Program-made: the position numbers and the translations under genes
In this document: positions 4,380 to 62,810 of the stretch, in pieces
How positions within the stretch are numbered: position 1 is the first letter of the stretch
Layout of the letters: each line of letters starts with the position of its first letter
Origin: Bacilli bacterium
Lineage (GTDB): Bacteria; Bacillota_I; Bacilli_A; RF39; UBA660
Assembly (NCBI GenBank): GCA_017409025.1
Contig: JAFQTN010000007.1
Span: forward strand, 3,038-67,037
Direction of reading: 5' to 3'
Length of the DNA: 64,000 nt
Notes under the pieces: generated by a model
Told to the model about the DNA's origin: nothing
The model's input: only the letters and a program-made list of their open reading frames with translations
Databases searched by the model: none

Positions 4380-5270
4380 ATGAATTATTATGAAGAGATA
4401 AAAAGTAAATTAGTTAATAATGAGGTATATTCAAGAGTCAAAGATTATTCGAAAGAAAGACATAAGGTAATTACTTATTTTGAAATAGGTAGATTATTGG
4501 AAGAAGCTGGTGGAAAATATGGTGATAACATAATAGAAGAATATTCTAAAAAATTAATTGTCGAAGTTGGTAAAAAATATAATAGAAGAACATTGTTTAG
4601 AATGAAACAATTTTATAATATGTTTAGTAATCAAAAAGTGTCGACAATGTCGACACAATTATCATGGAGTCATTATACTGAACTTTTACCAATAAAAAAT
4701 ACAAATGAATTATTATATTACCTTACTTTGTGTATAAATCAAAATATTAATGTAAGAATTTTAAGAGAAAAGATAAAATCTAATGAGTATGAAAGATTAC
4801 TATGTAATACTAAAAACAAATTAATATTAGAACAGGAAGCAAATGTAGTAGATTTTGTTAAAAATCCAATTAAGATTAAAAATAATAAAAATTATGAAAT
4901 AGTAACTGAAAAAATATTACAAAAATTAATATTAGAGGATATACCTTCTTTTTTAGATGAATTAGGTAGTGATTTTACATTTGTTAAAAATGAATTTAAA
5001 ATTAAATTAGGTGATAGATATAATTATATTGATTTACTTTTATATAATATTAAATTTAAATGTTATGTGGTTGTTGAATTAAAAATATCAGAATTAAAGA
5101 AAGAACATATAGGACAAATTCAAACTTATATGAATTATATTGATAAAAATATTAAAACAATAGATGAAGATAGAACAGTTGGTTTAATTATTTGTAGGAA
5201 GAATAATGAATTTATTATTGAATATTGTTCAGATGATAGAATAATTTACAAAGAATATGAGTTGGTATAA
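4380..5270 (+). CDS. YhcG/DUF1016 family PD-(D/E)XK nuclease domain protein
   Basis: LSWSHY, FLDELGSDFTFV, YIDLLLY...VVVELK, GQIQTYMNY, GLIIC motifs; start ATG 4380. Confidence 0.9.
   Translation: MNYYEEIKSKLVNNEVYSRVKDYSKERHKVITYFEIGRLLEEAGGKYGDNIIEEYSKKLIVEVGKKYNRRTLFRMKQFYNMFSNQKVSTMSTQLSWSHYTELLPIKNTNELLYYLTLCINQNINVRILREKIKSNEYERLLCNTKNKLILEQEANVVDFVKNPIKIKNNKNYEIVTEKILQKLILEDIPSFLDELGSDFTFVKNEFKIKLGDRYNYIDLLLYNIKFKCYVVVELKISELKKEHIGQIQTYMNYIDKNIKTIDEDRTVGLIICRKNNEFIIEYCSDDRIIYKEYELV
4638..4656. repeat. In-gene palindrome GTGTCGACA-A-TGTCGACAC (codes VSTMST)
   Basis: Perfect 9-bp arms read directly. Confidence 0.9.
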
Positions 5271-5282
5271 AATAAAAAATCC

Positions 5283-5966
5283 CTAAAATAGAGTATAGGG
5301 ATATTTATTCGGTAATTCAATTTCAAATGTTAGTAATTCATTAGTTGTTGGATGATAAAAAGATAATTCTTTTGCTATTAGTGCAATGTTTGTTTTGTTA
5401 TCATTAATAAAATTTTTATTGTATTTATGATCTCCATATAGAGGATAACCGTTATGTGAAAACTGAACCCTTATTTGGTGGTGTCTTCCGGTTATTAGGT
5501 TTATTTTTACTAGGCTTAAATTATCTTTATAATCAATTAGTTTGTATTCTAATATAGATTTTTTTCCATTTGATTCACTTGTTACATAAGATGTATTTGT
5601 TTTTTCATCTTTTGTTAAGTAATTTATAAAACTTCCTTCGTTTTCAATTTTATTTTCTATGACAGCATAATATGTTTTTTTGAATTTATTATCAGTAATT
5701 TGTTTTGATAAACGAGAAGCAGCTTTACTAGTTTTTGCAAATACTAAAATTCCTTCTACGGGTCTATCTAATCTATGGATTAATCCTAGATAGACATTTC
5801 CTGGCTTATTATATTTAATTTTTAAATATTCTTTTAATTTTGATAGTAAGTCAATATCATTAGATGAATCTAAGCATACGGGCATATTGGCTGGTTTATT
5901 AACTACGAGTAAGTGATTATCTTCATATAAGATATTAATGTTTTGATACTTTTCCATAAATTCCAC
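5283..5966 (-). CDS. RluA-family RNA pseudouridine synthase
   Basis: VVNKPA, HRLDRPVEG, TGRHHQIRV motifs. Confidence 0.9.
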   Translation of the reverse strand: MEFMEKYQNINILYEDNHLLVVNKPANMPVCLDSSNDIDLLSKLKEYLKIKYNKPGNVYLGLIHRLDRPVEGILVFAKTSKAASRLSKQITDNKFKKTYYAVIENKIENEGSFINYLTKDEKTNTSYVTSESNGKKSILEYKLIDYKDNLSLVKINLITGRHHQIRVQFSHNGYPLYGDHKYNKNFINDNKTNIALIAKELSFYHPTTNELLTFEIELPNKYPYTLF

Positions 5967-6795
5967 AAGGTAAGGATAAATTGTTTTCAGTTACAGGTAA
6001 GCCAATTTCACCAGTTTCAATATTACTATTTTCAAAAGTTAAGGAAAGAATATTTTTTAGTGATGTAGGAGATACTCCTGTAGTATAGGCACTAATTAGT
6101 AAAAATGAATAATTTTCGTCTAGAACATCTTTAGCTTTATTTAGGAGTTCTTGAATGTTATCTTCAAAACGCCATACTTCTTTATTAGGTCCTCTTCCAT
6201 AACTAGGAGGATCCATTATAATTCCATGGTATGTTCTTCCTCTTCTTTTTTCTTTTTCTAGGAATTTTATGACATCATCTTGGATAAATCTAATGGTATT
6301 ATTTTCTAAGTGAGAAAGATGCATGTTTTCTTTAGCCCAATCAATCATTCCTTTAGATGAATCTAGGTGAACAACTTCTTTAGCTCCGGCACTAGAAGCT
6401 GCCATGGTAGCACAGCCTGTATATGCGAAAAGGTTTAGAACTCTAAAATCTTCGATATTAGAATTTTTAATTTTATCCATAATATAATCCCAATTTGTCG
6501 CTTGTTCTGGGAAGATACCAGTATGTTTAAAATTAGTAGGGCTAACTTTAAAAGTCAAATTTTTATAATTGATAGTCCAGTATTCAGGTAATTTTTTTCT
6601 AAATTCCCATGAACCACCACCAAGATTAGATCTGTGATAATATCCGTCCCATTTGTTCCAAATAGGATTATTGGATTTATCCCAGATAATTTGTGGGTCT
6701 GGTCTATTTAGAATAATGTTTCCCCAACGTTCTAATTTTTCTTTATTTCCAGTAGCAATACATTCATAGTCTATCCATTTATTACTAATATTCAT
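5935..6795 (-). CDS. Class I SAM-dependent methyltransferase (RlmI/RlmK-like)
   Basis: HTGIFPEQ, LNLFAYTG, MDPPSY motifs. Confidence 0.85.
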   Translation of the reverse strand: MNISNKWIDYECIATGNKEKLERWGNIILNRPDPQIIWDKSNNPIWNKWDGYYHRSNLGGGSWEFRKKLPEYWTINYKNLTFKVSPTNFKHTGIFPEQATNWDYIMDKIKNSNIEDFRVLNLFAYTGCATMAASSAGAKEVVHLDSSKGMIDWAKENMHLSHLENNTIRFIQDDVIKFLEKEKRRGRTYHGIIMDPPSYGRGPNKEVWRFEDNIQELLNKAKDVLDENYSFLLISAYTTGVSPTSLKNILSLTFENSNIETGEIGLPVTENNLSLPCGIYGKVSKH

Positions 6796-6911
6796 AATTA
6801 CCTCGTTTCTTTATTAATTTTAACTTAAAAGTATAAATTTGTCTAGTATGTGAAATAGTTTGAAAAAAAGATGTAAAAATGATATAATTTTTAATGACTG
6901 GGGGATATATT

Positions 6912-7571
6912 ATGAGTTTAGGTGGATTTGCAGAAGATGAAAGTGTAGTTGATGGTGACTGGGAAGCATTTAATTATTGCTTAGCAGAAAATTATTACTC
7001 AGCAATGATTGGTGAAGAATGGGATTTGATTGGTGAGTCTTCGACAGATTTAATTGATGCTATAATTGATTGGCTTACTTATTGCGAAGAAATTGGAAAA
7101 GAAAATACTTATGATATTGAAGGTATTAGAAATGGTAATTTGATAACAGTTAATAATAGAACATTTATTGATGCGATAATTTCTGATAAGCAAGTTGATT
7201 TGGCAGAAACTTATATTCGTTTAGGTGTAAAAGATATACGGTTATATATATTGTTTATGCTTTATTATAAAGATGAGTTTTATGGTTTAAATGATCCGAT
7301 GAATACTATAAATTATGTTTATAAAGGTACCATTTTAAATGCTTATTTACCTTATGACAGAGATGATTTGATTAAGTTTTTATCTAATATTTTTAGTGAA
7401 CTTGATAAAATATACAATGGTTTAAAAAAGAATGCTGATAAAAAGAAATTTTTGAGTATAGTTAGATTTAACATTAATAATTTTAGATATAGTAAAAAAA
7501 TCGAAAAGATTAGTTTTGATGAAGTTTGTAGTCCTGGATTTGCTAGGATACTTCTAAAAAAAGGAGAATAA
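6912..7571 (+). CDS. Hypothetical protein (acidic N-terminus)
   Basis: ORF with RBS GGGGG and upstream TATAAT; no recognisable motif. Confidence 0.6.
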   Translation: MSLGGFAEDESVVDGDWEAFNYCLAENYYSAMIGEEWDLIGESSTDLIDAIIDWLTYCEEIGKENTYDIEGIRNGNLITVNNRTFIDAIISDKQVDLAETYIRLGVKDIRLYILFMLYYKDEFYGLNDPMNTINYVYKGTILNAYLPYDRDDLIKFLSNIFSELDKIYNGLKKNADKKKFLSIVRFNINNFRYSKKIEKISFDEVCSPGFARILLKKGE

Positions 7572-7572
7572 T

Positions 7573-8055
7573 ATGAATAGAAAAGGATTTACTTTAGTGG
7601 AGTTACTTGCTACGTTAGTAGTTTTAGGAATAGTAATGTCTATAGTTTTGGTTTCAGTAAATGGTGGTTTTGGTGAAGCAAAGAATAAAACTGAAGATGT
7701 TTTTATTGACACGATTAAGGATGCTATGGATATGTATTTGAACAGTGATGCTAAGGAATTAGATTTTGATACAACTTGTTCTAATTCTATTGATAAGACT
7801 TATGGTGAAGTAAAGGTATATAAGGCAAGTACTAATTTTCAGAATGTAATTAATTCTAAATATAAACCGATTACTCAGGATGATTTGGTGAATCCTGCAA
7901 ATAAAGATGTTGACTGTGTGGATGCTGTTAATATAATAGTCAATGTTTATAGGGATGAAGATTTTGTTTATTATTATAGTATTGATAAGAGTCGATTTGC
8001 TTGCTTAACTCAAACTGATAAGATAAGTAATTTACCTGAAGGATTTGATTGTTAA
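7573..8055 (+). CDS. Type IV pilin-like protein (prepilin N-terminal cleavage/methylation)
   Basis: MNRKG|FTLVELLATLVVLGIV class III signal; C-terminal cysteines. Confidence 0.85.
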   Translation: MNRKGFTLVELLATLVVLGIVMSIVLVSVNGGFGEAKNKTEDVFIDTIKDAMDMYLNSDAKELDFDTTCSNSIDKTYGEVKVYKASTNFQNVINSKYKPITQDDLVNPANKDVDCVDAVNIIVNVYRDEDFVYYYSIDKSRFACLTQTDKISNLPEGFDC

Positions 8056-8519
8056 TGCTAATATTATTTACAATAATATTTTTAGTTATTGATATAGTTA
8101 GTAAACTTTTAATCAGTAATTTAATGAACGTTGGACAAAGTATTCAAATTATTAATGATTTTTTCAATATTACATATGTAAGAAATACAGGTGCTGCCTG
8201 GAGTATTTTGTCAGGCGAGACTTGGTTACTTATAATAGTTAGTTTGATAATAATATCTTTGATTGTATTTTATATTTATAAAAATAGCCCTAAATCTGAC
8301 TTAGAAAAGATTAGTTATTCGATGATATTAGGTGGAGCGATAGGTAATTTACTAGATAGAATTATTTATGGTTATGTTGTAGATTTTTTAGATTTTAATG
8401 TATTTGGATATGATTACCCGATATTTAATTTAGCAGATAGTTTTATTCTTATTGGAGTAATACTTCTTGTTGTTTATACATGGAGGTGTAAAGATGGAAA
8501 TCAAAGTAATAGAAAATGA
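8055..8519 (+). CDS. lspA: Lipoprotein signal peptidase II
   Basis: NTGAAWS, GGAIGNLLDR, VVDF, FNLAD. Confidence 0.95.
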   Translation: MLILFTIIFLVIDIVSKLLISNLMNVGQSIQIINDFFNITYVRNTGAAWSILSGETWLLIIVSLIIISLIVFYIYKNSPKSDLEKISYSMILGGAIGNLLDRIIYGYVVDFLDFNVFGYDYPIFNLADSFILIGVILLVVYTWRCKDGNQSNRK

Positions 8520-9393: not shown

Positions 9394-9438
9394 TTAATAA
9401 TTAGAAATTGAGATATAATAAAGTTACGAGGTGAATAT

Positions 9439-10572: not shown

Positions 10573-10589
10573 AAAAACATAACTGTTAA

Positions 10590-10982: not shown

Positions 10983-11098
10983 ATTATCTTCCTTTCTTTT
11001 ATAATATTAACTAAATATTTCCAAATATACTGAAAATGTTTAATTATGTAAATTATACTAGGAGTATTTATGAATGTTAGATTTTGTGATATAATTAT

Positions 11099-12196: not shown

Positions 12197-12204
12197 GAGG
12201 TTTT

Positions 12205-13179: not shown

Positions 13180-13189
13180 GGAGAAAATT

Positions 13190-13883: not shown

Positions 13884-13893
13884 GTGATAAATA

Positions 13894-14805: not shown

Positions 14806-14814
14806 GAGAATATT

Positions 14815-20714: not shown

Positions 20715-22667
20715 ATGTTTGAATTAGTATCAAAATATATTCCATCTGGAGATCAGCCACAATCTATAAATAAGTTAGTTAATGGAATTAAAGAAGGAAA
20801 AAAGCATCAAGTATTACTTGGTGCTACAGGTACTGGTAAAACTTTTACAATTGCTAATGTAATTAAAGAAGTAAATAAACCTACTTTGGTTTTAGCACAT
20901 AATAAGACTCTTGCCGGACAATTATATTCAGAATTTAAAGAATTATTTCCTGATAATGCTGTTGAATATTTTGTTAGTTATTATGATTATTATCAACCGG
21001 AAGCTTATGTTCCAAGTACGGATACATATATAGAGAAAGATGCTAAAATAAATGATGAGATAGATGAACTTAGACATAAAGCAACTTCTAGTTTATTAAG
21101 TCGTGATGATGTTATTGTAGTAGCGTCAGTTTCTTGTATATATGGTATTGGTGAAGTAGAAGAATATAAAAACAAAATGTTAACTTTAGTTAAGGGACAA
21201 GAAATAGAAAGAAATTATGTTCTAGCTAAACTTGTTGATATGCTTTATGAGAGAAGTAATTTTGATTTAAAAAGAGGAACATTTAGAGTGCGTGGGGATG
21301 TTATTGAATTGATTCCAGCATATCAAAGAACTAATGGTATTTTGATAGAGTTTTTTGGTGATGAAATAGATAGAATTAGTGAATTTGATGTTGTTACTGG
21401 TGCTATACTTAAAGATAAAAAAAGTGTTTCTATATTTCCAGCTTCACACTTTGTAACAGGTGAAGAAAAATTAAAAATAGCTGTTAATAATATAAAAGAA
21501 GAATTAGATAATAGACTTAAATATTTTTTAGAAAATAATAAATTAATTGAAGAACAAAGGCTGAGAGAAAGAGTTAATTACGATATGGAGATGTTACTTG
21601 AAACTGGTTTTTGTAGAGGGGTAGAAAATTATTCAAGACATTTAGCTCTTAGAGGTGAAGGAGAGACACCTACGACACTTATGGATTTCTTTCCAGATGA
21701 TTTTCTTTTAGTTGTTGATGAATCTCATGTTACAGTTCCACAAGTTAGGGGAATGTATAATGGCGATAGAGCTAGAAAGATGAATTTGGTTAATTATGGT
21801 TTTAGACTTCCAAGTGCACTTGATAATAGACCTTTAAAGTTTCATGAATTTGAAAATAAAATTAATCAAGTAATATATGTAAGTGCTACTCCTGGAGATT
21901 ATGAATTAGAACTTGTTAATAATAATACGGTAGATCAAATAATAAGACCTACTGGATTATTAGATCCTCTTATTGAAGTTAGAGAAAGTAAAAATCAGAT
22001 TGATGATTTAATTAATGAAATAAATATTAGAATAGATAAAAAAGAAAGAGTTCTTATTACTACTTTAACTATTAAAATGGCTGAGGAACTTACTAATTAT
22101 TTAAAAGATATTGATATTAAAGTTGCTTATTTACATAATGAAGTGAAGACTTTACAAAGAATGAAAATAATTAGAGATTTAAGACTTGGGGTATATGATG
22201 TAGTAGTTGGTATTAATCTTCTTAGAGAAGGTATTGACATTCCTGAAGTATCTTTAATAGCGATTATGGATGCGGATAAACAAGGCTTTTTAAGAAGTAG
22301 TAGAAGTTTAATTCAAACTATAGGTAGATGTGCTAGAAATAGTGAAGGTAAGGTTATAATGTACGCTGATACTATCAGTGATAGTATGAAAATTGCTATT
22401 GATGAAACTGTTAGAAGAAGAAAAATACAAGAAGAATATAATAAAGAACATAATATTATACCTAAGACGATTATTAAAGAAATTAGAGATTTAATATCTA
22501 ATGAAGATGAAATAGCTAGTCAAGAAAATAAGAATAAGATGAGTAAGAAGGAAAGAGTAAGTTTAATTGAAAAATTAACTAATGAGATGAATATGGCGGC
22601 TAAAAATTTAGATTTTGAAAGGGCTATGGAACTTAGAGATATTATATTTGAAATGGAAAGCGAGTAA
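20715..22667 (+). CDS. uvrB: Excinuclease ABC subunit B
   Basis: [31 protein letters not shown]-terminal UVR domain. Confidence 0.98.
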
Positions 22668-25907: not shown

Positions 25908-25967
25908 ATTATCAACCTTATTAAATTATATGTGGGTAGATATGAAAAAAACACTTCAATTGAAGTG

Positions 25968-26960
25968 TTATAACCATACTCCGTATACTAGAGCTAGTAG
26001 GCATAGTATGAAACCTACTATCCAGAATAATTTAACGATATCTCCTTCACGCCAACCTAATCTTTCAAAGTGATGGTGAATAGGTGTCATTAGGAATACT
26101 TTCTTTTTAAATAAAACTACTGATACTATTTGAATTATTACTGTTAGTGTTTCTATTACGAATACTCCACCAATAACTGCTAGTGATAATTCATGACCGG
26201 TTAAGATAGCAATAGTAGCTAATGTAGCTCCTAGTGTTAGACTTCCGGTATCGCCCATAAATACTTTGGCTGGATTTGCATTATATACTAAGAATCCCAT
26301 AATAGAACCTACTAATATAAATGAGAATATACCAATATCTTGATAACCTTCAATCCAATAACTTCCCCAAGAAATTAAACCGAATGCTAAGAATGCGATA
26401 GCTGATAGGCCACCAGCTAATCCATCAAGACCATCTGTTAAGTTTACAGCGTTAGATGAACCTACTAATAAGAATAAAATAAATACTCCATAGAACCAAT
26501 CTAGACGCCATTCAATATTCAATAGAGTTATTTCTAAAATAGAATTAGCATCTGTATATTTACGATATAAAATATAAAATATTAAGGCTACGATAAATTG
26601 AAGTAATAGTTTTTGAAATTGAGATAGTCCTTTATTTTGATTTTGCTTTATACTTAGATAGTCATCTAGAAAACCAATTAATCCATATGATATAAAAACA
26701 AACATAACTATTAATAGGTTTACTGAAAATTCTATTTTATTAGTTAATAATAGAAAAACAGTAGTAATAATCGTTGGTATTATAAAGATTAATCCTCCCA
26801 TAGTAGGAGTTCCTGATTTTCTTTGATGGTTTTCTACATAAACATTTATTCTTTGTCCTGCTTTAATTTTTTTTAGTAGTGGTATAGCTATAAGACCAAA
26901 AGCAGTTGATAGTAAGAAACCTATCATTAAAGCAAATAGCGACTTTGTTAAAGTTAGCAT
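25968..26960 (-). CDS. mraY: Phospho-N-acetylmuramoyl-pentapeptide transferase
   Basis: KSGTPTMGG, NLTDGLDGL, FMGDTGS, PIHHHFE. Confidence 0.97.
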   Translation of the reverse strand: MLTLTKSLFALMIGFLLSTAFGLIAIPLLKKIKAGQRINVYVENHQRKSGTPTMGGLIFIIPTIITTVFLLLTNKIEFSVNLLIVMFVFISYGLIGFLDDYLSIKQNQNKGLSQFQKLLLQFIVALIFYILYRKYTDANSILEITLLNIEWRLDWFYGVFILFLLVGSSNAVNLTDGLDGLAGGLSAIAFLAFGLISWGSYWIEGYQDIGIFSFILVGSIMGFLVYNANPAKVFMGDTGSLTLGATLATIAILTGHELSLAVIGGVFVIETLTVIIQIVSVVLFKKKVFLMTPIHHHFERLGWREGDIVKLFWIVGFILCLLALVYGVWL

Positions 26961-29233: not shown

Positions 29234-31081
29234 GTGAATACTTTGACTGATAATAAAAGATTAAGTGATAATAAAAAAAGGTTATTAATATCTATATCAA
29301 TAGTAGTACTTGCTTTAACTTTAGTTGGTGGTACTTTTGCATATTTAATGCTTGGAATGGATATTACTAATGGTAATTATATATCTAAAACTGATTGTTT
29401 TGATATTATTTATGATAATACTAATGATGATGGTACAATGGATATTGCAGGTACTTTAATGCCTTCTGTTAGCTATAAAGGTGGATTATCAGGTAATATG
29501 GGTATTGGTTCATCTTGTGATATCGATGCACAAGGTAATTTACTTTTAAATATTAGTGAACAATCCTCAATATTAACTAGTCAGGTAGAAGATCATTGTG
29601 AGAATATTGATACATTGGAAACTTTACATTATAATCAAACTAAATGTAATAGTACTGAAAATGCAGTATGGGTCGTTAATGGTTCTGCCTTAAAGTATGC
29701 TGTTTATGATGAAAATAATGATGAATTTATTTCGGTTGGGTATGTAGATACTGTTAGTAGAGATATAAAAATGTATGAAAATTTTGATATACCATCTGAT
29801 GGTAGTTTGTTAGATTTTAAAATATATATATGGTTAGATGGTAATTTAGTTGATGAAGGTTATTCATTCGCTAGTTTGAGTGGGTATATATATGCCGATG
29901 TTAGACAAATTGGTGAAGTTCAACCGGAGGTTCCGGTCTTGGATTCTGGTATGGTGCCAGTAACAATAACTGATAATGGTACTGTGATAACTATATCTCC
30001 TGATGATTCAAATTGGTATGATTATAATAATAAAGAATGGGCAAATGTTGTATTAGTAAAGGAAAGTGGAGTAAATTCAAGACAATATTATTTAGATAAT
30101 TCTAATACAAAGGTATTACAGTCTGATATTTTAGCATATTATGTATGGATACCTCGATATAAGTATAAAATATCGTCTTTAGAGGCTGTTTCAATTGATA
30201 TTGATTTTGAAACTGCAGAGTCGGCTATGTCATTAGGAAATGCAAAAACAAACTATAGAACACATCCAGCTTTTTGGTGGGATAATGATAATGATAATGT
30301 AGTAGATTCAAATGAAATGTTATCTGGAATATGGGTAGGAAAATTTGAGACAACAGGTTCATCAACATCTCCGACGATATTACCAAATGCTGTTCCTCTT
30401 GTGAAGCAAAAATTAGGTAATCAATTTACAACAAGTCAAAAATTTATTCAATACGGATTATCTAATTCTAGTACTGATGCTCATTTAATGAAGAATAGTG
30501 ACTGGGGAGCAGTGGCGTATTTATCACATTCCAAATATGGAATAAATAAAGAAATACGAATAAATAATAGTTCTGTATATACAGGTTGTGGTGCAGCTAC
30601 AGTAGATGATGGTGCAAGTACAACATGTCCAAATGCATTTGGAACAGTGTCAGTATATCCACAAAGCACAACTGGAAATATAACCGGAGTATTTGATATG
30701 TCAGGTGGAAAGAATGAATATGTAATGGGCCATTATGGAGATATACTTACTAGTAATGATAATTCAGCTTTTACTGTAATGCCAGATAAAAAATATTACG
30801 ATTTATATTCAACAACTGTTTTTTCAGGAGATGTTAATAGTAATTTATCAAAATGTACAACAGAAACATGCGGTGGTCATGCTTTAAATGAAACAGCAGG
30901 ATGGTATAGTGATAATAAAACGGGAGGTTTTGTTTCTGCTTCAAGTAAGCCTTGGTTCGTACGTGGTGGATTATACAGCGGTGGAGCATCAGCAGGTATA
31001 TTTTACTTTAATGACCATTATGGTACTGGATTTGACACCTACTCATGGCGTTCTGCGATTGTAACAGGGATTGTAGCGTAG
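29234..31081 (+). CDS. Secreted TasA/SipW-class-signal protein with C-terminal C-type-lectin (FGE-like) domain; putative DGR target
   Basis: GGTFAY signal; YYVWIPRYKY, THPAF, GIWVGKFE, GVFDMSGG..EYV, WFVRGG...SWR. Confidence 0.65.
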   Translation: MNTLTDNKRLSDNKKRLLISISIVVLALTLVGGTFAYLMLGMDITNGNYISKTDCFDIIYDNTNDDGTMDIAGTLMPSVSYKGGLSGNMGIGSSCDIDAQGNLLLNISEQSSILTSQVEDHCENIDTLETLHYNQTKCNSTENAVWVVNGSALKYAVYDENNDEFISVGYVDTVSRDIKMYENFDIPSDGSLLDFKIYIWLDGNLVDEGYSFASLSGYIYADVRQIGEVQPEVPVLDSGMVPVTITDNGTVITISPDDSNWYDYNNKEWANVVLVKESGVNSRQYYLDNSNTKVLQSDILAYYVWIPRYKYKISSLEAVSIDIDFETAESAMSLGNAKTNYRTHPAFWWDNDNDNVVDSNEMLSGIWVGKFETTGSSTSPTILPNAVPLVKQKLGNQFTTSQKFIQYGLSNSSTDAHLMKNSDWGAVAYLSHSKYGINKEIRINNSSVYTGCGAATVDDGASTTCPNAFGTVSVYPQSTTGNITGVFDMSGGKNEYVMGHYGDILTSNDNSAFTVMPDKKYYDLYSTTVFSGDVNSNLSKCTTETCGGHALNETAGWYSDNKTGGFVSASSKPWFVRGGLYSGGASAGIFYFNDHYGTGFDTYSWRSAIVTGIVA

Positions 31082-40099: not shown

Positions 40100-40140
40100 A
40101 AAGTAAATAAAAAACTTTGTACGAATAATGTTATTGAAGG
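40100..40140 (+). promoter_or_regulatory. cin-box/SigH-ComX-like promoter motif, copy 2
   Basis: AAAGTAAAT-N11-TACGAATAATGTTATTGAAGG. Confidence 0.65.
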
Positions 40141-40148
40141 AGGAATTA

Positions 40149-41015
40149 ATGAAAGAAAATAAAATAGACACAATTACAAATTTATTTGAGGGTAGTGAAA
40201 TAAGAAGTATTTGGGATAGTGAAAAAGAAGATTATTATTTTAGTGTAGTTGATGTTATTAGTGCATTAACGGGAAGTAATAATCCAAGAAATTATTGGAA
40301 TATGCTTAAGAAAAGATTAATAGAAGATGATGGAAGTGAGTTGTACACAAAATGTGTACAACTGAAAATGAAATCTCAAAAAGATGGAAAGAACTATCTA
40401 ACAGATACACTGGATACTGAAGGAATCTTTAGACTTATTGAATCTGTTCCGAGTCCTAAAGCCGAACCATTTAAAATGTGGTTTGCTTCTTTAGGAAAAG
40501 AAAGAATTGATGAAGTATTTGATCCAGAAAAAGCAATTGATAGAGCGATTGATTATTATCGTAAAAAAGGTTATTCAGATAACTGGATTGAAACTAGATT
40601 AAAAGGAATTCTTAATCGCAAGAAATTAACAGATGTGTGGAAAGAGAATGGAATTACTGAAAATTATGAATATGCGATGCTAACTAATGAAATTTATAAA
40701 ACTTGGTCTGGTATGAAAGCTAATGAATATAAAGATTTTAAAGGTATTAGAAAAGAATCTTTAAGAGATAATATGACAGATATAGAAGTAATACTTACTG
40801 ATTTGGGTGAAATAACTGCAAGGGATATAGCAAAATATGAGCGTCCTCAAGGTTTGAAAGATAATTTAAAAGTTGCTAAAAGAGGTGGAGATGTATCTAA
40901 AATAGCAAGAGAAAGTTATGAGATACAAACTGGTAGACGTGCGATAACTAGTAGAAATAATCTCTATATAAAATATTCTGGTGATACTAAATTAACAACT
41001 AAAAATAAATTTTAG
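40149..41015 (+). CDS. Bro-N domain DNA-binding protein (phage antirepressor-like)
   Basis: IRSIWD...YYFSVVDVI, RNYW..LK.RL, RLIESVPSPKAEPFK.W, SLRDNMT; start ATG 40149. Confidence 0.85.
   Translation: MKENKIDTITNLFEGSEIRSIWDSEKEDYYFSVVDVISALTGSNNPRNYWNMLKKRLIEDDGSELYTKCVQLKMKSQKDGKNYLTDTLDTEGIFRLIESVPSPKAEPFKMWFASLGKERIDEVFDPEKAIDRAIDYYRKKGYSDNWIETRLKGILNRKKLTDVWKENGITENYEYAMLTNEIYKTWSGMKANEYKDFKGIRKESLRDNMTDIEVILTDLGEITARDIAKYERPQGLKDNLKVAKRGGDVSKIARESYEIQTGRRAITSRNNLYIKYSGDTKLTTKNKF
40339..40363. repeat. In-gene palindrome AGTTGTACACA-AAA-TGTGTACAACT (codes LYTKCVQL)
   Basis: Perfect 11-bp arms read directly. Confidence 0.9.
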
Positions 41016-54173: not shown

Positions 54174-54192
54174 TTATAGCAAATGTTATAAT
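54163..54192 (+). promoter_or_regulatory. Consensus SigA promoter for ATPase-like cluster
   Basis: TTGACA-N18-TATAAT with extended TG. Confidence 0.7.
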
Positions 54193-54199
54193 GAAATAA

Positions 54200-54478
<279 letters not shown>

Positions 54479-54479
54479 G

Positions 54480-55244: not shown

Positions 55245-55245
55245 G

Positions 55246-58206
<2,961 letters not shown>

Positions 58207-58207
58207 T

Positions 58208-58744: not shown

Positions 58745-58760
58745 AAGGGGAAGTGAAATA

Positions 58761-59525
58761 ATGAAAATTAAAAACGTTGTTAAAGTTATGAACTTCCAAG
58801 CTCTTCTTAGAATGGATAAATCATTAAAAGAAGCGGATAAATATAGAAATGTTGGTAAAGAAGTTACTGATATATTAAGTAGGATTATGTATAATAAAAA
58901 CTTAATATTAGATAAGAAAATATTATTTCCAGAAGCTACTTTACCTGAACTTAATATATATATAGCTAATGATTATGGTTTTTGTGGGAATTTTAATTCT
59001 GGTATTAGTAAATGTATAAGAAATGATAAAGATGCTTACAAAATTATTATTGGTAAGAAAATAATTTATACTGATGATAAGGTATTGTTAAAAATAGATA
59101 AAGAGGATTTCTTAAAAAGATTTACTGAAATTGAAAATTGTATAGATAAGGCAGTAAAGTCGATGAATTATAGTAGAATTAATGTTTATTATAATCATTA
59201 TTATTCACTTACTTCATTTGAACTTTTAAAAATACAGTTATTTCCTGTTGAGTTTAAAGGAGAATATTATGAAGGTGAAGATTTTGTTGCTGAGACTAAT
59301 TTAAATAATATACTTGGTAGTTTGATGACATTTTATATATGTTATCAACTTAAGATGTGTGAGAGTATATCTTATGCAGCAGAGAATGTTTTAAGAACAC
59401 AAATTACTTCTTCGGCGTTAGAAAAAATTGAAGAAAAAGAAGAAGAACAAAAACATGAAGAAGCAAAGTTAAAAAAGGAAAAGAGTGTCTTGAAGAGTGT
59501 TGAAAACTTTAAAAAGATTGCTTAG
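58761..59525 (+). CDS. atpG: F1-like ATPase gamma subunit (divergent)
   Basis: KIKNVVKVM N-helix, ANDYGFCGNFNS (cf. SDRGLCGxFN), YNHY, SYAAEN..R C-helix. Confidence 0.8.
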   Translation: MKIKNVVKVMNFQALLRMDKSLKEADKYRNVGKEVTDILSRIMYNKNLILDKKILFPEATLPELNIYIANDYGFCGNFNSGISKCIRNDKDAYKIIIGKKIIYTDDKVLLKIDKEDFLKRFTEIENCIDKAVKSMNYSRINVYYNHYYSLTSFELLKIQLFPVEFKGEYYEGEDFVAETNLNNILGSLMTFYICYQLKMCESISYAAENVLRTQITSSALEKIEEKEEEQKHEEAKLKKEKSVLKSVENFKKIA

Positions 59526-59542
59526 ATATAGAGGTGATTATA

Positions 59543-61456
59543 ATGATAAGACAAAGTTTAGAATTTGATGATATATTAGAGAAGAAGTTTAAAATACTTA
59601 GAACTAGTATAATGTTAGGTAATTTAAGAAATAGGGAAGATACTTTAAGAGAGTATGAAGATACTGCTAGAGAGATAGATAAGATTAGAAAAAATGTTTA
59701 TGAAGAACTTTTAGCTAGTAAGTTATATACTACAATAACTTTAGAAGAAGAAGAAACTAGACTTAAAGATTTAATTACTTTTATTGAAAATAGAATACAA
59801 GAAAGAAATGACTTTGTAGACGATTATATTAAAATTACCTCAAACTTTTTAGATGGGCTTGATAAAGTTTCTTTAGAAAATGAATTAGATAATTATAAGA
59901 ATAGATATAGTAATATAGAAGAATATTTGAAAAATTGTGAACAAATAGAGTCTCTTAATAATAGGTTAAAAGAGTTAAGAGATGGACTTGAGGAAAAGTA
60001 TGAAAACAAAGCTAATAATGAAATAGTTAATTCTAAATTAGAAGAAGAATTAATTGATGAATTTAATAAATATATATCTAATTATGAATATTATTCAGAA
60101 TTAAATTATACGGATATAGATTTAGAACTTACTAAGATTGAAGAATCGTTGTTAGAAAAGAAGAGTGTATTAGATACATTTTTATCTTCATATCAAGCAT
60201 TAGTTAATGCTGGTATATCTGGTGCAGAGAGAGAAGAATATGCATCTTATGTATCTGAAGCTAGAGTTAATTATTATGAAGATTTAGAAAAGAAATATAT
60301 TTTAAATATATATAAACTAGTACTTGATAAACAAACAGATTATGAAAGATTATATGATAAGAGAAGTAGAATTGATTCTATATTAAACGAAAGAGAAGAA
60401 ATGAGAAATTCTCTTGATATAAGTAGAAGAGACGATTTTAAATATTTTGTTACTTTATGTAATGAACAATTTAGTATTATTAAATCTCAAAAATTTAATA
60501 TGGAAAGTATTGATAAATTAATATTAGAAATTTCTGAATGTGAAAATAAATTAACTGAATTAATGGAAACTAATAATAGAACTGAAATACAAGATATATT
60601 AACTGAATTTTCTGTTGATGCTCCGGAAATTGAAAAAATAGAATTACCAGATGAAAAAGAAGTTTATGAAGAGGTAATTAAAGACTTAGAAAAGAAACCA
60701 GATAATATGGTTGTTAGAATAAGGGATCCAATTAAGATAAATGTTAAGGGTGTTACTGATACTGCTAAATTAGTAATGAAGAAAGTAGTTATTGTGTTAG
60801 AACCTAAGAAATTTAATCAAAAAAGAAATAAATTAAAAGAAGCTGAATTAGAACTAGAAGAAGAGAAGAAAAATATAGAAGAGTCTATATTAGAAGATAA
60901 TTTAGTTACTGAGAAAGTTAATGAAAATATAGATAATCAAATAGATTCAGTAGAAGAAATTGATAAAGAAGAAATAGATACTGAAAATTTATTTGAGGAT
61001 GAGATAAAGATAGATACTAGTGGTAATACTGAAGATATATTCTTAGATGATGGTATTGGAATTGAACTTGATACTAAAGAAGTATTTGATAATGATGTAA
61101 CTGAGACTAAGGAGTTAACTGAAATTAAGATAAATGCTGATGATATATCAAATATGACTATTCCTACGGAGATATATGTAGAAGAACCACCTGTAGAACC
61201 AGAACCTGACTTATTTACAGTTACTGATCCATTCTTGGATGATAATGAATTTGAGGTGGCTCACGATAAAGTAAGTGAAGGTATTAAAGCTAATATGCCA
61301 ACTCTTGGTAATATTGGTACGGTTAGACCTACGAATGTATTATCTAAAATAGAGGATGTTGTTAGAAATAATGATGATATAATTCTTCCTAATTTAGGGC
61401 TAGTTGACAATACAAAACAAGAGGTTCCAATAGTTAGTGAGAATTATATAAATTAG
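59543..61456 (+). CDS. Long coiled-coil protein with very acidic disordered C-terminus
   Basis: E/K/L heptads over ~450 aa, D/E/P-rich tail; last gene of ATPase-like operon. Confidence 0.65.
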   Translation: MIRQSLEFDDILEKKFKILRTSIMLGNLRNREDTLREYEDTAREIDKIRKNVYEELLASKLYTTITLEEEETRLKDLITFIENRIQERNDFVDDYIKITSNFLDGLDKVSLENELDNYKNRYSNIEEYLKNCEQIESLNNRLKELRDGLEEKYENKANNEIVNSKLEEELIDEFNKYISNYEYYSELNYTDIDLELTKIEESLLEKKSVLDTFLSSYQALVNAGISGAEREEYASYVSEARVNYYEDLEKKYILNIYKLVLDKQTDYERLYDKRSRIDSILNEREEMRNSLDISRRDDFKYFVTLCNEQFSIIKSQKFNMESIDKLILEISECENKLTELMETNNRTEIQDILTEFSVDAPEIEKIELPDEKEVYEEVIKDLEKKPDNMVVRIRDPIKINVKGVTDTAKLVMKKVVIVLEPKKFNQKRNKLKEAELELEEEKKNIEESILEDNLVTEKVNENIDNQIDSVEEIDKEEIDTENLFEDEIKIDTSGNTEDIFLDDGIGIELDTKEVFDNDVTETKELTEIKINADDISNMTIPTEIYVEEPPVEPEPDLFTVTDPFLDDNEFEVAHDKVSEGIKANMPTLGNIGTVRPTNVLSKIEDVVRNNDDIILPNLGLVDNTKQEVPIVSENYIN

Positions 61457-61549
61457 ATATAAAAAATAATAAAAAAATGTGTTAATTAGTATTGCAAATT
61501 TTATAAAAATTTGCTACTATTAATATAGTAAAGGAGGAAATAAAAAATT

Positions 61550-62341
61550 ATGGAAAATAATGGAAGAGGAATTTTTTATGGAGTTATAGGTGTTGCAACT
61601 TTAGTTGTAGCAATAATTGGTGCTACATTCGCATACTTCTCAGCAAGTGCTGGTGGAAACGAAACAGTTACTGCTGGTGGTGCTACAATCGACTTAAAAT
61701 GGAGTGAAGATGTAACATTAATTCAAGATAACTTAGTACCAGTTGAAACTGGATTTGTTGATGAAAATCAAGAAGAAGGAAAACTTCAAAATACTGCTGC
61801 ACAATTTGCTACTTATGCAAATTTAGACCCTACTAAAGCAGCTACTACTTGGTGTCAAGATAAAGATGGTGTATACAATGTTTGTAGTGCATATAGCATT
61901 ACAATTACTAATGAAGGTACTGCTCCAATCACACTTGATGGAAGTTTTACTACTGTAAGTAATAGTGTAGAACATTTAAAATTTGCAATTTTTAGAGGAA
62001 CTGCTACAAATGTATTTTCTACTGCTAGTGTAGAAGGTGGCGAAATTGGTTGGGATGTTAATGCTGCTAAAGGACAAGCTGCAACTTCATATTTTGCTTC
62101 TGGAGTAGCGGATGGAGCTTTATTAGTAAGTGCTACAGATATAGCTTCAGGTGAAAATACTGTTGGTACTAAGTTGGATCTTACACTTGGAGCTGCAGGT
62201 TCTGGTACTGAAACAGCGACATTTACAATTCTTCTATGGATTGAAGAAATTGGTACTACTCAAAAATCAGGTGGAGATTTCATTGGTAAAGTAAACTTCA
62301 CTACTGCTGATGGAACTGGTATTACTGGTTTAATAGCTTAA
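61550..62341 (+). CDS. TasA/camelysin-like secreted protein with SipW-class signal peptide (candidate major fibre subunit)
   Basis: IIGATFAYFSA signal; own promoter (TTGCAA...TACTAT), AAGGAGG RBS and terminator; C-ending codons suggest high expression. Confidence 0.7.
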   Translation: MENNGRGIFYGVIGVATLVVAIIGATFAYFSASAGGNETVTAGGATIDLKWSEDVTLIQDNLVPVETGFVDENQEEGKLQNTAAQFATYANLDPTKAATTWCQDKDGVYNVCSAYSITITNEGTAPITLDGSFTTVSNSVEHLKFAIFRGTATNVFSTASVEGGEIGWDVNAAKGQAATSYFASGVADGALLVSATDIASGENTVGTKLDLTLGAAGSGTETATFTILLWIEEIGTTQKSGGDFIGKVNFTTADGTGITGLIA

Positions 62342-62384
62342 TAATTCTATAAAAAAATAATATAAAAAATAAATTCCAAAATTC

Positions 62385-62420
62385 AAACAAGATAAGAAAT
62401 TATCTTGTTTTTCCTTTTTT
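62385..62420 (+). terminator. Intrinsic terminator
   Basis: aaacaagataa-gaaa-ttatcttgttt followed by T run. Confidence 0.75.
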
Positions 62421-62466
62421 TATTTTGTATTAAAAATAATAATTCTTGGTAATATTTTATTAATTA

Positions 62467-62508
62467 AAAGTAATTATAATTTGATTTTACGAATAATACT
62501 ATTGAAGG
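62467..62508 (+). promoter_or_regulatory. cin-box/SigH-ComX-like promoter motif, copy 3
   Basis: AAAGTAATT...TACGAATAATACTATTGAAGG, core 21 nt identical to 4348-4368. Confidence 0.65.
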
Positions 62509-62516
62509 AGTAAGAT

Positions 62517-62810
62517 ATGGATTATTATAGTGAGATAAAAAATAAATTAATAGACAACGAAGTTTATTCAAGAGTTAAGGATTATTCGAAAGAAAGACAT
62601 AAGGTAATTACTTATTTTGAAACAGGTAGACTTTTGTCTGAGGCTGGAAGTGTTTAGGGTGAAGATATAATTGGAAAATATTCAGTCAAATTGATGAATG
62701 AGGTTGGCAAGAAATATGATAAAAGAACTTTGTTTAGAATGAAACAATTTTATTTTATTTTTAGTAATGAAAAAGTGTCCACAATGTGGACACAATTAAA
62801 ATTTAAATAA
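62517..62810 (+). pseudogene. Truncated DUF1016 N-terminal fragment, paralog of 4380 gene, with internal TAG
   Basis: MDYYSEIKNKLIDNEVYSRVKDYSKERHKVITYFE...; TAG at 62655-62657 where the paralog has Tyr; homology ends just after VSTMWTQL. Confidence 0.85.
62775..62793. repeat. Palindrome GTGTCCACA-A-TGTGGACAC
   Basis: Perfect 9-bp arms; covaries with the 4638 palindrome. Confidence 0.9.

What the first reader, a model, noticed from the sequence alone, without database searches (positions are those of the whole stretch)
4638..62793. In-frame DNA palindromes in YhcG/Bro-N genes with compensatory covariation
Seen: the DUF1016 gene has GTGTCGACA-A-TGTCGACAC (4638-4656, VSTMSTQL). Its paralog has GTGTCCACA-A-TGTGGACAC (62775-62793, VSTMWTQL): two substitutions that exactly preserve the symmetry, one of them non-synonymous (S to W). 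An unrelated Bro-N gene has AGTTGTACACA-AAA-TGTGTACAACT (40339-40363, LYTKCVQL) at a comparable position after a helix and before QL. These are GC-richer than the background. Inference: symmetry is maintained or regenerated at DNA/RNA level. Options are a hairpin-templated hypervariable peptide segment, a self-encoded operator, or a recombination/nicking site shared across two protein families.
Basis: partly seen in the sequence, partly recalled or inferred. Interest (0 to 1): 0.82.

Follow-up and report, generated by a model that had tools for sequence, protein, structure and literature searches.

The report
Genes carrying their own protein's DNA site
Several families of mobile, defence-linked bacterial genes carry, inside their own coding sequence, a short DNA palindrome that looks like the private docking site of the protein the gene encodes, so each gene comes labelled with its own target.

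Summary
All three palindromes are in the window as described. They are not chance. In DUF1016/YhcG genes from many phyla and phages, a 9+1+9 (up to 15+1+15) palindrome sits in one fixed codon register just before the LSWSHY motif. Its sequence differs from gene to gene: 88 of 110 sites have at least 8 of 9 pairs, against 0.7 expected under synonymous shuffles. Bro-N, RhuM and ORF6N genes have equivalent in-frame palindromes. All four families match PADLOC single-gene phage-defence candidates. Mismatches show no G·T excess, which argues for a DNA-level rather than an RNA-level constraint. The decisive result is that residues on a helix 13-18 codons upstream track the palindrome bases like a recognition code. 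Arg70 goes with G, Lys/Arg73 with G, aromatic 73 with T, Asn71 with A and Arg74/100/125 with C. This held in independent-pair tests on all tree branches and in leave-out prediction. The window's one DUF1016 gene without an internal palindrome has its predicted site just upstream of its start codon. Best reading: a self-encoded, dyad-symmetric operator bound by the gene's own dimeric N-terminal domain, probably for autoregulation. Binding and its effect are inferred, not shown.

The parts
4362..5270 (+). DUF1016/YhcG gene 1 (N-terminal helical DNA-binding-like domain + C-terminal PD-(D/E)XK nuclease domain; PADLOC PDC-S02)
   Evidence: ORF; Pfam; PADLOC; AF2 model pLDDT 88.5; fold matches
4584..4601 (+). 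codons of residues 69-74 (R R T L F R; numbering from the ATG at 4380), the N-terminus of the helix whose residues 70, 71, 73 and 74 covary with palindrome bases 3, 5, 2 and 5: candidate recognition helix
   Evidence: sequence
4638..4656 (.). in-frame 9+1+9 palindrome (encodes VSTMSTQ, a low-confidence linker or short helix): proposed cognate site of gene 1's own protein
   Evidence: unique in the genome at <=3 mismatches apart from the fragment's copy
4677..4679 (+). codon of residue 100 (T), which covaries with palindrome base 6 (R goes with C; other residues mostly with G)
   Evidence: a relative with the C variant has R here
62517..62810 (+). broken N-terminal DUF1016 fragment (stop after 46 aa; homology ends 3-4 nt after its palindrome)
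62775..62793 (.). palindrome of the fragment; differs from 4638-4656 by one compensated pair (pair 6, G-C to C-G)
62813..62830 (.). 9+0+9 palindrome (core of the 26-nt palindrome 62809-62834), 24 nt before the start of gene 3; its half-site is the one predicted from gene 3's recognition residues: proposed operator in a conventional upstream position
   Evidence: a
62855..63853 (+). DUF1016/YhcG gene 3, the only full-length copy examined in this genome without an in-gene palindrome
40128..41015 (+). Bro-N family gene (PADLOC PDC-S13)
40281..40313 (+). codons of residues 52-62 (helix NPRNYWNMLKK); positions 52, 58, 59 and 62 track the palindrome class across 50 relatives: candidate recognition helix (not controlled for phylogeny)
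40339..40363 (.). in-frame, codon-aligned 11+3+11 palindrome (encodes ELYTKCVQL): proposed cognate site of the Bro-N protein
   Evidence: unique in the genome

Best explanation
Each palindrome is the dyad-symmetric DNA site recognised by the protein that the same gene encodes: a self-encoded, private operator. In DUF1016/YhcG the N-terminal helical domain, presumably as a homodimer, reads a 9-bp half-site. It uses residues 70, 71, 73 and 74 at the start of the helix GKGFSxRNLRxMRxFY, plus residues 100 and 125. The site lies 13-18 codons downstream, in DNA that encodes a structurally permissive linker, so the bases can change with little cost to the protein. Both arms must stay identical because two identical subunits bind them, and that produces the 'compensatory' covariation. 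Paralogs have diverged to different sites, and each site occurs once per genome, so each protein addresses only its own gene. The same logic appears to hold for the Bro-N, RhuM and ORF6N genes. SHOWN: position-fixed, sequence-variable palindromes in four families; a DNA-type mismatch spectrum; residue-base covariation that survives independent-pair tests on all tree branches. INFERRED: physical binding, dimer stoichiometry, and function. The most likely function is negative autoregulation (a roadblock or operator) that travels with the gene wherever it lands. Such genes are often embedded in foreign operons such as type I R-M loci. I put this function at about 0.45 within the 0.65 given to the whole reading.
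For: (1) The palindrome keeps a fixed register. 23 of 24 family sites in relatives have >=7/9 pairs. 88 of 110 sites in loci L001-L110 have >=8/9, against 0.7 expected (maximum 6 in 2000 synonymous shuffles). Mean pairs are 7.6 at the true offset and <=3.9 at 116 other offsets. The tool count gives 88.0% paired against 54.3%, and covariation 0.725 against 0.178. (2) Other families show the same. Bro-N has perfect arms >=8 in 28/48 segments against 1.3% under the null. RhuM has arms >=9 in 7/15 against 3.1%, and ORF6N in 7/11 against 0.4% (examples). DUF1016 scored register-free gives 85/125 against 1.8%. (3) The constraint looks DNA-level. For DUF1016 pairs 2-8 the non-standard pairs are G·T 5, A·C 10, other 11. 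For the other three families they are G·T 14, A·C 11, other 22. Broken copies keep the palindrome: all 23 family sites in broken ORFs have 7-9/9. (4) There is a recognition code. R70 goes with G at base 3 (35/36). K/R73 goes with G at base 2 (41/43), and F/W/Y/T/M/A/S at 73 with T (28/28). N71 goes with A at base 5 (43/45) and R74 with C (20/21). Independent pairs on a tree built without these columns give 12 same/0 opposite, 12/0, 11/0, 10/0, 9/0 and 9/0. The target column ranks 1st of about 208 control columns in 7 of 8 tests. Leave-out prediction using only genes <50% identical elsewhere gives base 2 60/66 (baseline 28/66), base 3 62/79 (37/79), base 5 40/41 (33/41), base 6 56/64 (15/64) and base 7 57/61 (36/61). 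(5) A prediction was met. Gene 3 has no in-gene palindrome and carries residues S,N,K,Y. It has AGTCAGACA|TGTCTGACT upstream. That is the half-site class of the four genes with T,N,K,Y (identical in one, one base different in another). The 9-mer occurs 3 times in the genome, and 2 of those are this palindrome. The C variant at pair 6 is followed by R100 in an intact-reading relative, while gene 1 has G with T100. (7) Each of 10 palindromes tested is unique in the genome at <=3 mismatches, apart from the gene 1/fragment pair. (8) The encoded residues lie in a linker with the lowest pLDDT of the N-domain and rank 4, 12, 25 and 34 of 290 in variability. (9) The N-domain resembles the ParB/Spo0J and KorB DNA-binding domains, which bind palindromes: 1vz0_A Z 8.7, rmsd 2.7, 101 aligned; 1r71_A Z 7.2, rmsd 3.2, 108 aligned. 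(10) E. coli K-12 yhcG has three tandem 39-nt units, each with a palindrome sharing one core, which looks like an operator array. (11) There is a precedent: lambda ori, four 19-bp repeats bound by the N-terminal half of O, lies within gene O (PMC4488673, passages). DUF1016 and RhuM genes are enriched next to, and embedded in, type I R-M loci (PMC9881135, passages).
Against: No binding, dimerisation or regulation was measured. On well-supported ('starred') branches only, treekit gives median p 0.004 for R70/G3, but 0.06 for K/R73/G2 and 0.13 for N71/A5. The tree is a FastTree tree of 91 sequences. The residue columns were found by an MI scan of the same data, although the control columns got the same best-residue treatment. 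Arms reach 15-16 bp in some genes, longer than a small dimer needs. Arms are G+C-rich (59% against 29% in flanks), which also fits selection for hairpin stability. The fold match to ParB/KorB is in the range that helical domains reach by chance (note). There is no extra cognate half-site near promoters (4/76 against 6.7% control, call 107d), so any regulation would have to act from inside the gene, which is unusual. The Bro-N and ORF6N residue-site associations are not phylogenetically controlled. For a nuclease, a site in its own gene could be a cleavage target rather than an operator.
Confidence: 0.65

Rival explanations
1. The site is bound by the gene's own protein, but as a substrate rather than an operator. 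The tethered PD-(D/E)XK nuclease cuts or nicks at or near the palindrome. That would drive gene conversion, allele replacement or exclusion of incoming relatives carrying the same site (a homing- or restriction-like selfish cycle).
For: It shares all the recognition evidence. The C-domain is a NucS/Shedu/Can2-like nuclease. The window fragment loses homology 3-4 nt after the palindrome. A common E. coli yhcG allele class ends inside the right arm of the third palindrome and is followed by unrelated DNA; this class is 4 of 25 evenly spread rows, and one was inspected. Some mosaic breakpoints map to the palindrome (positions 84-99 in 5 of 13 chosen pairs). Tandem partial copies lie around the palindrome in L049.
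Against: There is no global hotspot. Only 8 of 121 strong pairwise breakpoints fall in positions 80-99. Only 3 of about 48 3'-truncated matches end within 0-4 aa of the palindrome, and two of those are the same window fragment. Bro-N, RhuM and ORF6N proteins have no recognised nuclease domain. Gene 3 has its site upstream of the gene, in operator position. A self-cutting gene with no visible protection would be costly.
Confidence: 0.15
2. The palindrome works as a DNA secondary structure (hairpin or cruciform), independent of any sequence-specific reader. It might act as a supercoiling- or replication-sensitive block, or as a fragile site, and is kept for stem stability only.
For: Arms are G+C-rich in A+T-rich genes (59% against 29%). 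Arm length varies from 7 to 16 bp. The centres are A/T-rich in Bro-N, RhuM and ORF6N. Mismatches cluster at the outer pairs. The folds are stable on both strands. There is no strand bias in mismatch type.
Against: It does not predict that residues 13-18 codons upstream, and at positions 100 and 125, should track particular bases with Arg-G, Asn-A and aromatic-T preferences. It does not predict gene 3's upstream site. The innermost pair, which cannot form in a hairpin with a 1-nt centre, is still kept (A-T 74, G·T 9 of 85).
Confidence: 0.1
3. It is an mRNA hairpin inside the ORF that tunes translation, pausing or mRNA decay.
For: It lies in a transcribed region and the predicted stems are stable. 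The position within the ORF is conserved.
Against: G·U-type pairs are not enriched over A·C or other mismatches: 19 against 21 against 33 in all. Real RNA stems tolerate G·U. The 1-nt centre cannot be a loop. Broken, untranslatable copies keep the palindrome. No Rfam family matches in the window. The protein-residue covariation is unexplained by this reading.
Confidence: 0.04
4. There is no function. A quasi-palindrome that arose once is kept symmetric by replication template switching, which copies one arm from the other.
For: Template switching is reported to homogenise inverted-repeat arms, invert spacers and maintain hairpins (PMC8794818 and PMC8604942; only the search listing and start of abstracts were seen). 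Both complementary centre bases are common: C 39, G 24, T 14, A 8. Pseudogenes keep the symmetry.
Against: It does not explain the enrichment in four particular families: 9 of the 17 least probable in-ORF palindromes of this genome. It does not explain retention across phyla at about 30% protein identity, the G+C richness, or the residue-base code. It may well be the mutational route by which both arms change together.
Confidence: 0.04

Closest known systems
Phage lambda O protein and ori-lambda (binding sites inside the initiator's own gene)
   Same: The DNA sites bound by the N-terminal half of a protein lie within that protein's own coding sequence (PMC4488673, passages). E. coli yhcG even has three tandem repeat units, each with a dyad.
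   Different: Lambda's sites are four 19-bp iterons next to an A/T-rich region and form a replication origin. Here there is usually a single dyad and no sign of an origin. The genes are nuclease or effector fusions, not initiators. That lambda's iterons lie in linker-coding DNA and are type-specific is recalled, not checked here.
ParB-parS and KorB-operator (HTH domains reading short palindromes)
   Same: The N-domain model superposes on the Spo0J/ParB and KorB DNA-binding domains (Z 8.7 and 7.2). The targets are short perfect palindromes bound by dimers.
   Different: No sequence family match was found. The Z values are in the range helical domains reach by chance.
Autoregulated HTH-effector and toxin-antitoxin/defence modules with palindromic operators
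   Same: A DNA-binding domain fused or linked to a potentially harmful effector; dyad operators; specificity that diverges between paralogs to avoid cross-talk (general knowledge, recalled).
   Different: Those operators overlap promoters. Here the site sits mid-gene in a fixed codon register. The exception is gene 3 of the window, where it is upstream.
Quasi-palindrome template-switch mutagenesis / covariation in RNA stems
   Same: Paired, symmetric substitutions in both arms, and inverted centre bases.
   Different: Here the symmetry correlates with protein residues elsewhere in the gene, and wobble pairs are not favoured.
PADLOC phage-defence candidates PDC-S02 (DUF1016), PDC-S13 (Bro-N), PDC-S05/S23 (RhuM, ORF6N, RhuM-Fic)
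   Same: The window and genome proteins match these models strongly.
   Different: These are candidate systems only. No in-gene palindrome or self-recognition was found described for them in the searches.

Membership tests
Pfam DUF1016_N + YhcG_C (YhcG family) | Both HMMs matched above the curated cut-off | tested here: met
   Gene 1: 92.4 and 115.4 bits. Gene 3: 141.3 and 183.4 bits. The fragment scores 21.1 bits only, below the cut-off.
Pfam DUF1016_N + YhcG_C (YhcG family) | PD-(D/E)XK nuclease fold of the C-domain | tested here: met
   The AF2 model matches NucS 2vld_B at Z 12.3, rmsd 2.2, 107 aligned. It also matches Can2, Card1 and SduA. Catalytic activity was not tested.
Pfam Bro-N | HMM matched above the cut-off | tested here: met
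   44.2 bits against a cut-off of 25.6.
PADLOC PDC-S02 / PDC-S13 (candidate single-gene defence) | Match to the PADLOC models | tested here: met
   E 1.8e-65 and 5.4e-125 (PDC-S02); 6.8e-113 (PDC-S13).
PADLOC PDC-S02 / PDC-S13 (candidate single-gene defence) | Protection against phage | not testable with these tools
   Not assayed. The models cover candidates only.
Self-encoded operator (protein binds a dyad in or beside its own gene) | Dyad symmetry conserved in position, variable in sequence | tested here: met
Self-encoded operator (protein binds a dyad in or beside its own gene) | Specificity residues of the protein covary with bases of the site | tested here: met
   Met for DUF1016. It is weaker on starred branches only, where two of three tests have p>0.05. 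For Bro-N and ORF6N the evidence is suggestive only.
Self-encoded operator (protein binds a dyad in or beside its own gene) | Physical, sequence-specific binding as a dimer | not testable with these tools
   No protein-DNA tool was available. The homodimer job gave no verdict.
Self-encoded operator (protein binds a dyad in or beside its own gene) | Binding changes the gene's own expression | not tested
   No RNA data: no RNA holder was listed.
Lambda-type origin inside the initiator gene | Several iterons plus an adjacent A/T-rich unwinding region; replication function | tested here: not met
   Most genes have a single dyad. E. coli has three. No initiator or helicase-loader context was seen in the window. 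Replication was not assayed.
Structured RNA element (Rfam) | Match to an Rfam model; wobble-tolerant covariation | tested here: not met
   0 matches at gathering score in the window. G·T is not enriched.
ParB/KorB-type HTH DNA-binding domain | Shared fold of the N-domain | tested here: inconclusive
   Z 7.2-8.8, within the range reported for chance matches of helical models. No sequence match to solved structures.

The most novel reading that the evidence does not exclude
Thousands of DUF1016, Bro-N, RhuM and ORF6N genes are 'self-documenting' sequence-specific DNA binders. Each ORF would carry its own cognate site, and the residue-to-base rules would be simple enough to read (and perhaps rewrite) from sequence alone. 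The family would then be a natural, diversifying set of addressable nucleases. Their self-targeting could both autoregulate them and drive allele replacement or exclusion among mobile elements.
Probability: 0.3. Interest if true: 0.92.

Novelty: new variant of a known kind. Interest (0 to 1): 0.86.

Why it matters
If the reading holds, four very widespread and functionally obscure gene families gain a concrete, testable mechanism. DUF1016/YhcG is present in 4465 of the 5426 E. coli genomes searched. The finding also shows that a cis-regulatory site can be hidden in a fixed codon register of the gene it controls. That forces amino-acid changes which follow reverse-complement codon rules (Y-V, T-S, P-R, V-H, L-Q in Bro-N). 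It offers a free, very large training set of cognate protein-DNA pairs, because every homolog reports its own site. It gives a simple explanation for how genes embedded in foreign operons (type I R-M loci) could regulate themselves without a promoter of their own. It is also a warning for annotation and for tests of selection: strong covariation inside ORFs need not mean RNA structure.

Tried and rejected
RNA-structure reading: no Rfam hit and no wobble excess.

Expression: no RNA holder was listed for the window. Contigs of four DNA runs laid at 80% likeness mixed paralogs and other organisms, and showed nothing usable on variants or ends.

Homodimer prediction for gene 1: no verdict (after repeated queue-full answers).

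Recombination hotspot: there is N/C mosaicism, but breakpoints are spread out. Only 8 of 121 fall in positions 80-99. Truncated matches do not pile up at the palindrome.

Second cognate site near promoters: none beyond chance, 4/76 against 6.7%.

Promoter scan around 62400-62900: 6 promoter-like sites against 4.6 expected, which is uninformative.

Programmed frameshift idea (A-rich run before the stem): dropped. The run is not conserved outside the A+T-rich clade and there is no spacer (read).

Protein-level explanation of the symmetry: rejected. The encoded residues are hypervariable, and synonymous shuffles keep only about 3.9 of 9 pairs.

Sequence match of DUF1016 to solved structures: none.

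A Bro-N structure model was planned, but two chosen ranges held stop codons and I dropped the step.

Literature: no paper was found describing these palindromes or an in-gene operator in these families. In particular, Term-seq or 3'-end tables for E. coli yhcG may hold relevant data that I could not see.

The other improbable in-ORF palindromes of the genome lie in ordinary genes (a GATase, a sulfatase, a BrkB-like protein, a Fic protein, a Germane-domain protein and a large helicase-nuclease; an hsdM and an RNase J-like ORF were named from their sequence only). Most are A+T-rich, and I treat them as chance.

Full report
WHAT IS THERE.

- 4638-4656 lies in frame in a 302-aa gene with DUF1016_N and YhcG_C domains.
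- 62775-62793 lies in a broken N-terminal fragment of a paralog. The fragment has a stop after 46 aa, and its homology to gene 1 ends 3-4 nt after the palindrome.
- 40339-40363 lies in a 295-aa Bro-N gene.

The genome (1.28 Mb, 37 contigs) has 26% G+C. Palindromes this G+C-rich are rare in it. Of the 17 least probable perfect palindromes that lie inside ORFs of 150 aa or more, 9 fall in only four gene families: DUF1016 5, RhuM 2, ORF6N 1, Bro-N 1. The other 8 lie in ordinary genes, and most of them are A+T-rich.

THE PALINDROME IS A FAMILY FEATURE, NOT A LOCAL ACCIDENT.

Every other DUF1016 copy in this genome (contigs C21, C24, C33, C35, C36) has a palindrome of different sequence in the same codon register. 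Three codons form the left arm. The first base of a Leu/Val/Met codon is the centre. The right arm ends on the first base of the Gln/Lys/Glu codon before LSWSHY. Only the window's gene 62855-63853 lacks it.

The same holds well beyond this genome:
- In relatives, 23 of 24 family sites have at least 7 of 9 pairs.
- It also holds in 80 loci from one-genome-per-species contigs. These span Bacteroidota, Proteobacteria, Treponema, Omnitrophota, Selenomonas, Verrucomicrobia and others, at about 30% protein identity.
- Over loci L001-L110, 88 of 110 motif-defined sites have at least 8 of 9 Watson-Crick pairs. Synonymous-codon shuffles give 0.7 expected, with a maximum of 6 in 2000 shuffles. A few of the 110 are chance motif hits.
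- The signal exists only at the true offset: mean 7.6 pairs there, at most 3.9 at 116 other offsets.
- Of the 11 low-scoring sites in loci, 6 have a palindrome with arms of 9 bp or more that is displaced by an insertion or a register shift. Two have 7-bp arms. Three have none: L080, L101 and the window's gene 3.
- The tool count on 79 rows (the window plus all 78 loci that have a site) gives 88.0% paired cells against 54.3% in shuffles (0 of 500). Covariation is 0.725 against 0.178. At most 42% pair when the partner is slid.
- Phage-borne copies and E. coli K-12 yhcG have arms of up to 15 bp.

THREE MORE FAMILIES SHOW THE SAME THING.

- Bro-N relatives carry a codon-aligned 11+3+11 palindrome. 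In 30 rows, 92.1% of cells pair against 69.7% in shuffles, 0 of 500. Because of the palindrome, the amino acids covary as reverse-complement codons: Y-V, T-S, P-R, S-R, V-H, V-D, L-Q, L-K.
- RhuM and ORF6N genes, found through the genome-wide palindrome scan, also have position-fixed, sequence-variable palindromes with arms of up to 13 and 16 bp.
- In a register-free test against 100 synonymous shuffles per gene, perfect arms of 8 or more occur in 85 of 125 DUF1016 segments (null 1.8%) and in 28 of 48 Bro-N segments (1.3%). Arms of 9 or more occur in 7 of 15 RhuM segments (3.1%) and 7 of 11 ORF6N segments (0.4%).
- All four families match PADLOC 'phage defence candidate' single-gene models: PDC-S02, S13, S05 and S23.
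- A published survey lists DUF1016 and RhuM proteins among the annotations most enriched next to inversion-targeted genes. It also shows them embedded between the core genes of type I R-M loci (PMC9881135, passages).

DNA OR RNA?

Non-standard pairs show no preference for G·T.
- In DUF1016 pairs 2-8 (85 distinct sites) there are 5 G·T, 10 A·C and 11 others.
- In the other three families together there are 14, 11 and 22.

A selected RNA stem would tolerate G·U. The 1-nt centre cannot be a hairpin loop, yet the innermost pair is kept: A-T 74, G·T 9 of 85. Broken copies keep the palindrome: all 23 family sites in broken ORFs have 7-9 of 9 pairs. No Rfam family matches in the window. The constraint therefore acts on duplex-symmetric DNA.

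THE ENCODED PEPTIDE IS A PERMISSIVE LINKER.

In an AlphaFold2 model of gene 1 (pLDDT 88.5), the seven encoded residues form a short helix or loop between helices, in the lowest-confidence block of the N-domain. Four of the seven columns rank 4, 12, 25 and 34 of 290 in variability, directly beside the most conserved motif of the protein.

THE DECISIVE OBSERVATION: A RECOGNITION CODE.

I asked which protein columns, other than those encoded by the palindrome, carry information about its bases. I used 80 genes with at least 7 of 9 pairs. The top columns are 73, 125, 100, 74, 71, 70 and 69, against a median normalised MI of about 0.25 everywhere else. Numbering is from the ATG at 4380. Five of these columns sit at the start of the helix GKGFSxRNLRxMRxFY, 13-18 codons upstream of the palindrome.

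The contingency tables read like textbook protein-DNA contacts:
- Arg70 goes with G at base 3 (35 of 36), and Thr70 with T (12 of 15).
- Lys/Arg73 goes with G at base 2 (41 of 43). F/W/Y/T/M/A/S at 73 goes with T (28 of 28).
- Asn71 goes with A at base 5 (43 of 45).
- Arg74 goes with C at base 5 (20 of 21), which is G on the other strand.
- All 20 genes with Arg100 have C at base 6, and all 11 with Lys/Arg125 have C at base 7.

I then controlled for shared ancestry. On a tree built without columns 66-100, phylogenetically independent pairs give, as same/opposite/tie: 12/0/2, 12/0/6, 11/0/5, 10/0/5, 9/0/1 and 9/0/0. The target column ranks first of about 208 control columns in 7 of 8 tests. With treekit's stricter count on well-supported branches only, R70/G3 stays significant (median p 0.004). 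K/R73/G2 (0.06) and N71/A5 (0.13) have too few pairs.

Using only genes less than 50% identical elsewhere as the training set, the residues predict the bases well:

| Base | Correct | Majority-base baseline |
|---|---|---|
| 2 | 60 of 66 | 28 of 66 |
| 3 | 62 of 79 | 37 of 79 |
| 5 | 40 of 41 | 33 of 41 |
| 6 | 56 of 64 | 15 of 64 |
| 7 | 57 of 61 | 36 of 61 |

TWO CHECKS INSIDE THE WINDOW ITSELF.

(i) Gene 3 (62855-63853) has no in-gene palindrome, and its recognition residues are S,N,K,Y. Genes with T,N,K,Y have left arms of the AGTCAGACA class. Gene 3 has the perfect palindrome AGTCAGACATGTCTGACT at 62813-62830, 24 nt before its start codon. That 9-mer half-site occurs only three times in the genome, and two of those are this palindrome. 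So where the site is not inside the gene, it sits in a classical operator position.

Gene 1, with G at base 6, has Thr there. This is exactly the R100-C6 rule.

SUPPORTING POINTS.

- Each of 10 palindromes tested is unique in the genome at 3 or fewer mismatches, apart from the gene 1/fragment pair.
- The N-domain model superposes on the ParB/Spo0J and KorB DNA-binding domains, which bind short palindromes. The matches are Z 8.7, rmsd 2.7, 101 aligned, and Z 7.2, rmsd 3.2, 108 aligned. Z values like these are within the chance range for helical models.
- The C-domain is NucS-, Shedu- and Can2-like.
- E. coli K-12 yhcG carries three tandem 39-nt units, each with a palindrome sharing one core. 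By eye, its helix (K70, N71, R73) fits the code for its site.
- In Bro-N, the non-encoded columns most informative about the palindrome are 52, 58, 59 and 62 of the ORF (helix NPRNYWNMLKK). In ORF6N, the residue after G-T-K in the HTH tracks the palindrome core. These two are not phylogenetically controlled and the samples are small or close-knit.

HOW IT MOST LIKELY WORKS.

Shown:
- a position-fixed, sequence-variable DNA dyad in four families;
- specific residues of the same protein that covary with specific bases of it.

Inferred:
- The N-terminal domain binds the dyad as a homodimer, which is why both arms must change together.
- Paralogs have diverged to private sites.
- Binding inside or just before the gene feeds back on its own expression.

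An in-gene operator would let a gene that is dropped into foreign operons regulate itself with no promoter of its own. That suits potentially harmful nuclease or effector fusions. The known precedent for a protein's binding sites lying within its own gene is lambda O and ori-lambda (PMC4488673, passages).

The main alternative keeps the binding but makes the site a cleavage or recombination target. The evidence for that is as follows:
- The window fragment loses homology just past the palindrome.
- A frequent E. coli allele class is truncated inside the right arm of the third palindrome.
- Some mosaic breakpoints map there.

However, no global hotspot is seen. Pure hairpin/cruciform, RNA-hairpin and neutral template-switch readings do not explain the residue-base code. 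Template switching may still be the mutational route by which both arms change at once (listing only).

LIMITS.

- Nothing was measured at the bench.
- There was no RNA data.
- The homodimer job gave no verdict.
- The covarying columns were discovered and tested on the same 80-91 sequences.
- The tree is a quick one.
- The long, G+C-rich arms in some genes would also suit a structural role.
- I found no paper describing these palindromes. Supplementary files could not be read.

Noticed in passing
G000:C1:173259-174532 (outside the window): At least seven copies of a 24-32-nt perfect palindrome with the core TGTTCCACGTGGAACA lie within 1.3 kb. By recall this matches the parS consensus, so it may be a parS cluster near the origin.
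   Followed up: no
window 4310-4379 and the equivalent stretches of G000 C21, C24, C33 and window 62450-62516: About 50 nt upstream of the start codon (promoter/leader and RBS) are conserved among five DUF1016 paralogs, while the downstream flanks are unrelated. The duplicated unit is therefore leader plus gene.
   Followed up: partly
L328:3001-3900 (E. coli strain 2011C-3911) compared with L214:12828-13955 (K-12): One E. coli yhcG allele class is cut inside the right arm of the third palindrome. It continues with unrelated DNA and a 101-aa ORF annotated 'transposase', and fimbrial genes yhcA-yhcF are also missing upstream. 1116 of the 4465 genomes with a match have less than 80% of the gene.
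   Followed up: partly
L049:1110-2591: A DUF1016 gene is broken into three consecutive pieces. Each piece repeats the palindrome-plus-LSWSHY region, and each has a different palindrome.
   Followed up: no
L034:1411-3650: Two intact DUF1016 genes lie in tandem, followed by a third broken copy. The third copy's palindrome is identical to that of the window's fragment.
   Followed up: partly
G000:C28:37652-37668: An 8+1+8 G+C-rich palindrome encodes the DPAAGS motif of a type I R-M methylase (hsdM) gene. It may be chance at a conserved motif.
   Followed up: no
window 22369-22387, 25950-25969, 30628-30643: Three other short perfect palindromes with 2-3 G/C per arm (9+1+9, 10+0+10, 8+0+8). Their context was not examined.
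   Followed up: no
window 62385-62410: An 11+4+11 inverted repeat lies just after the surface-protein-like gene 61550-62341. It is followed by a T-run and looks like its terminator.
   Followed up: no
G000 and relatives: DUF1016, Bro-N, RhuM and ORF6N genes are multi-copy in these roughly 1-Mb genomes. G000 has 8 DUF1016 (counting the window fragment), 4 Bro-N, 2 RhuM and 3 ORF6N loci, and G033 has 15 DUF1016 matches. Many copies are broken.
   Followed up: partly
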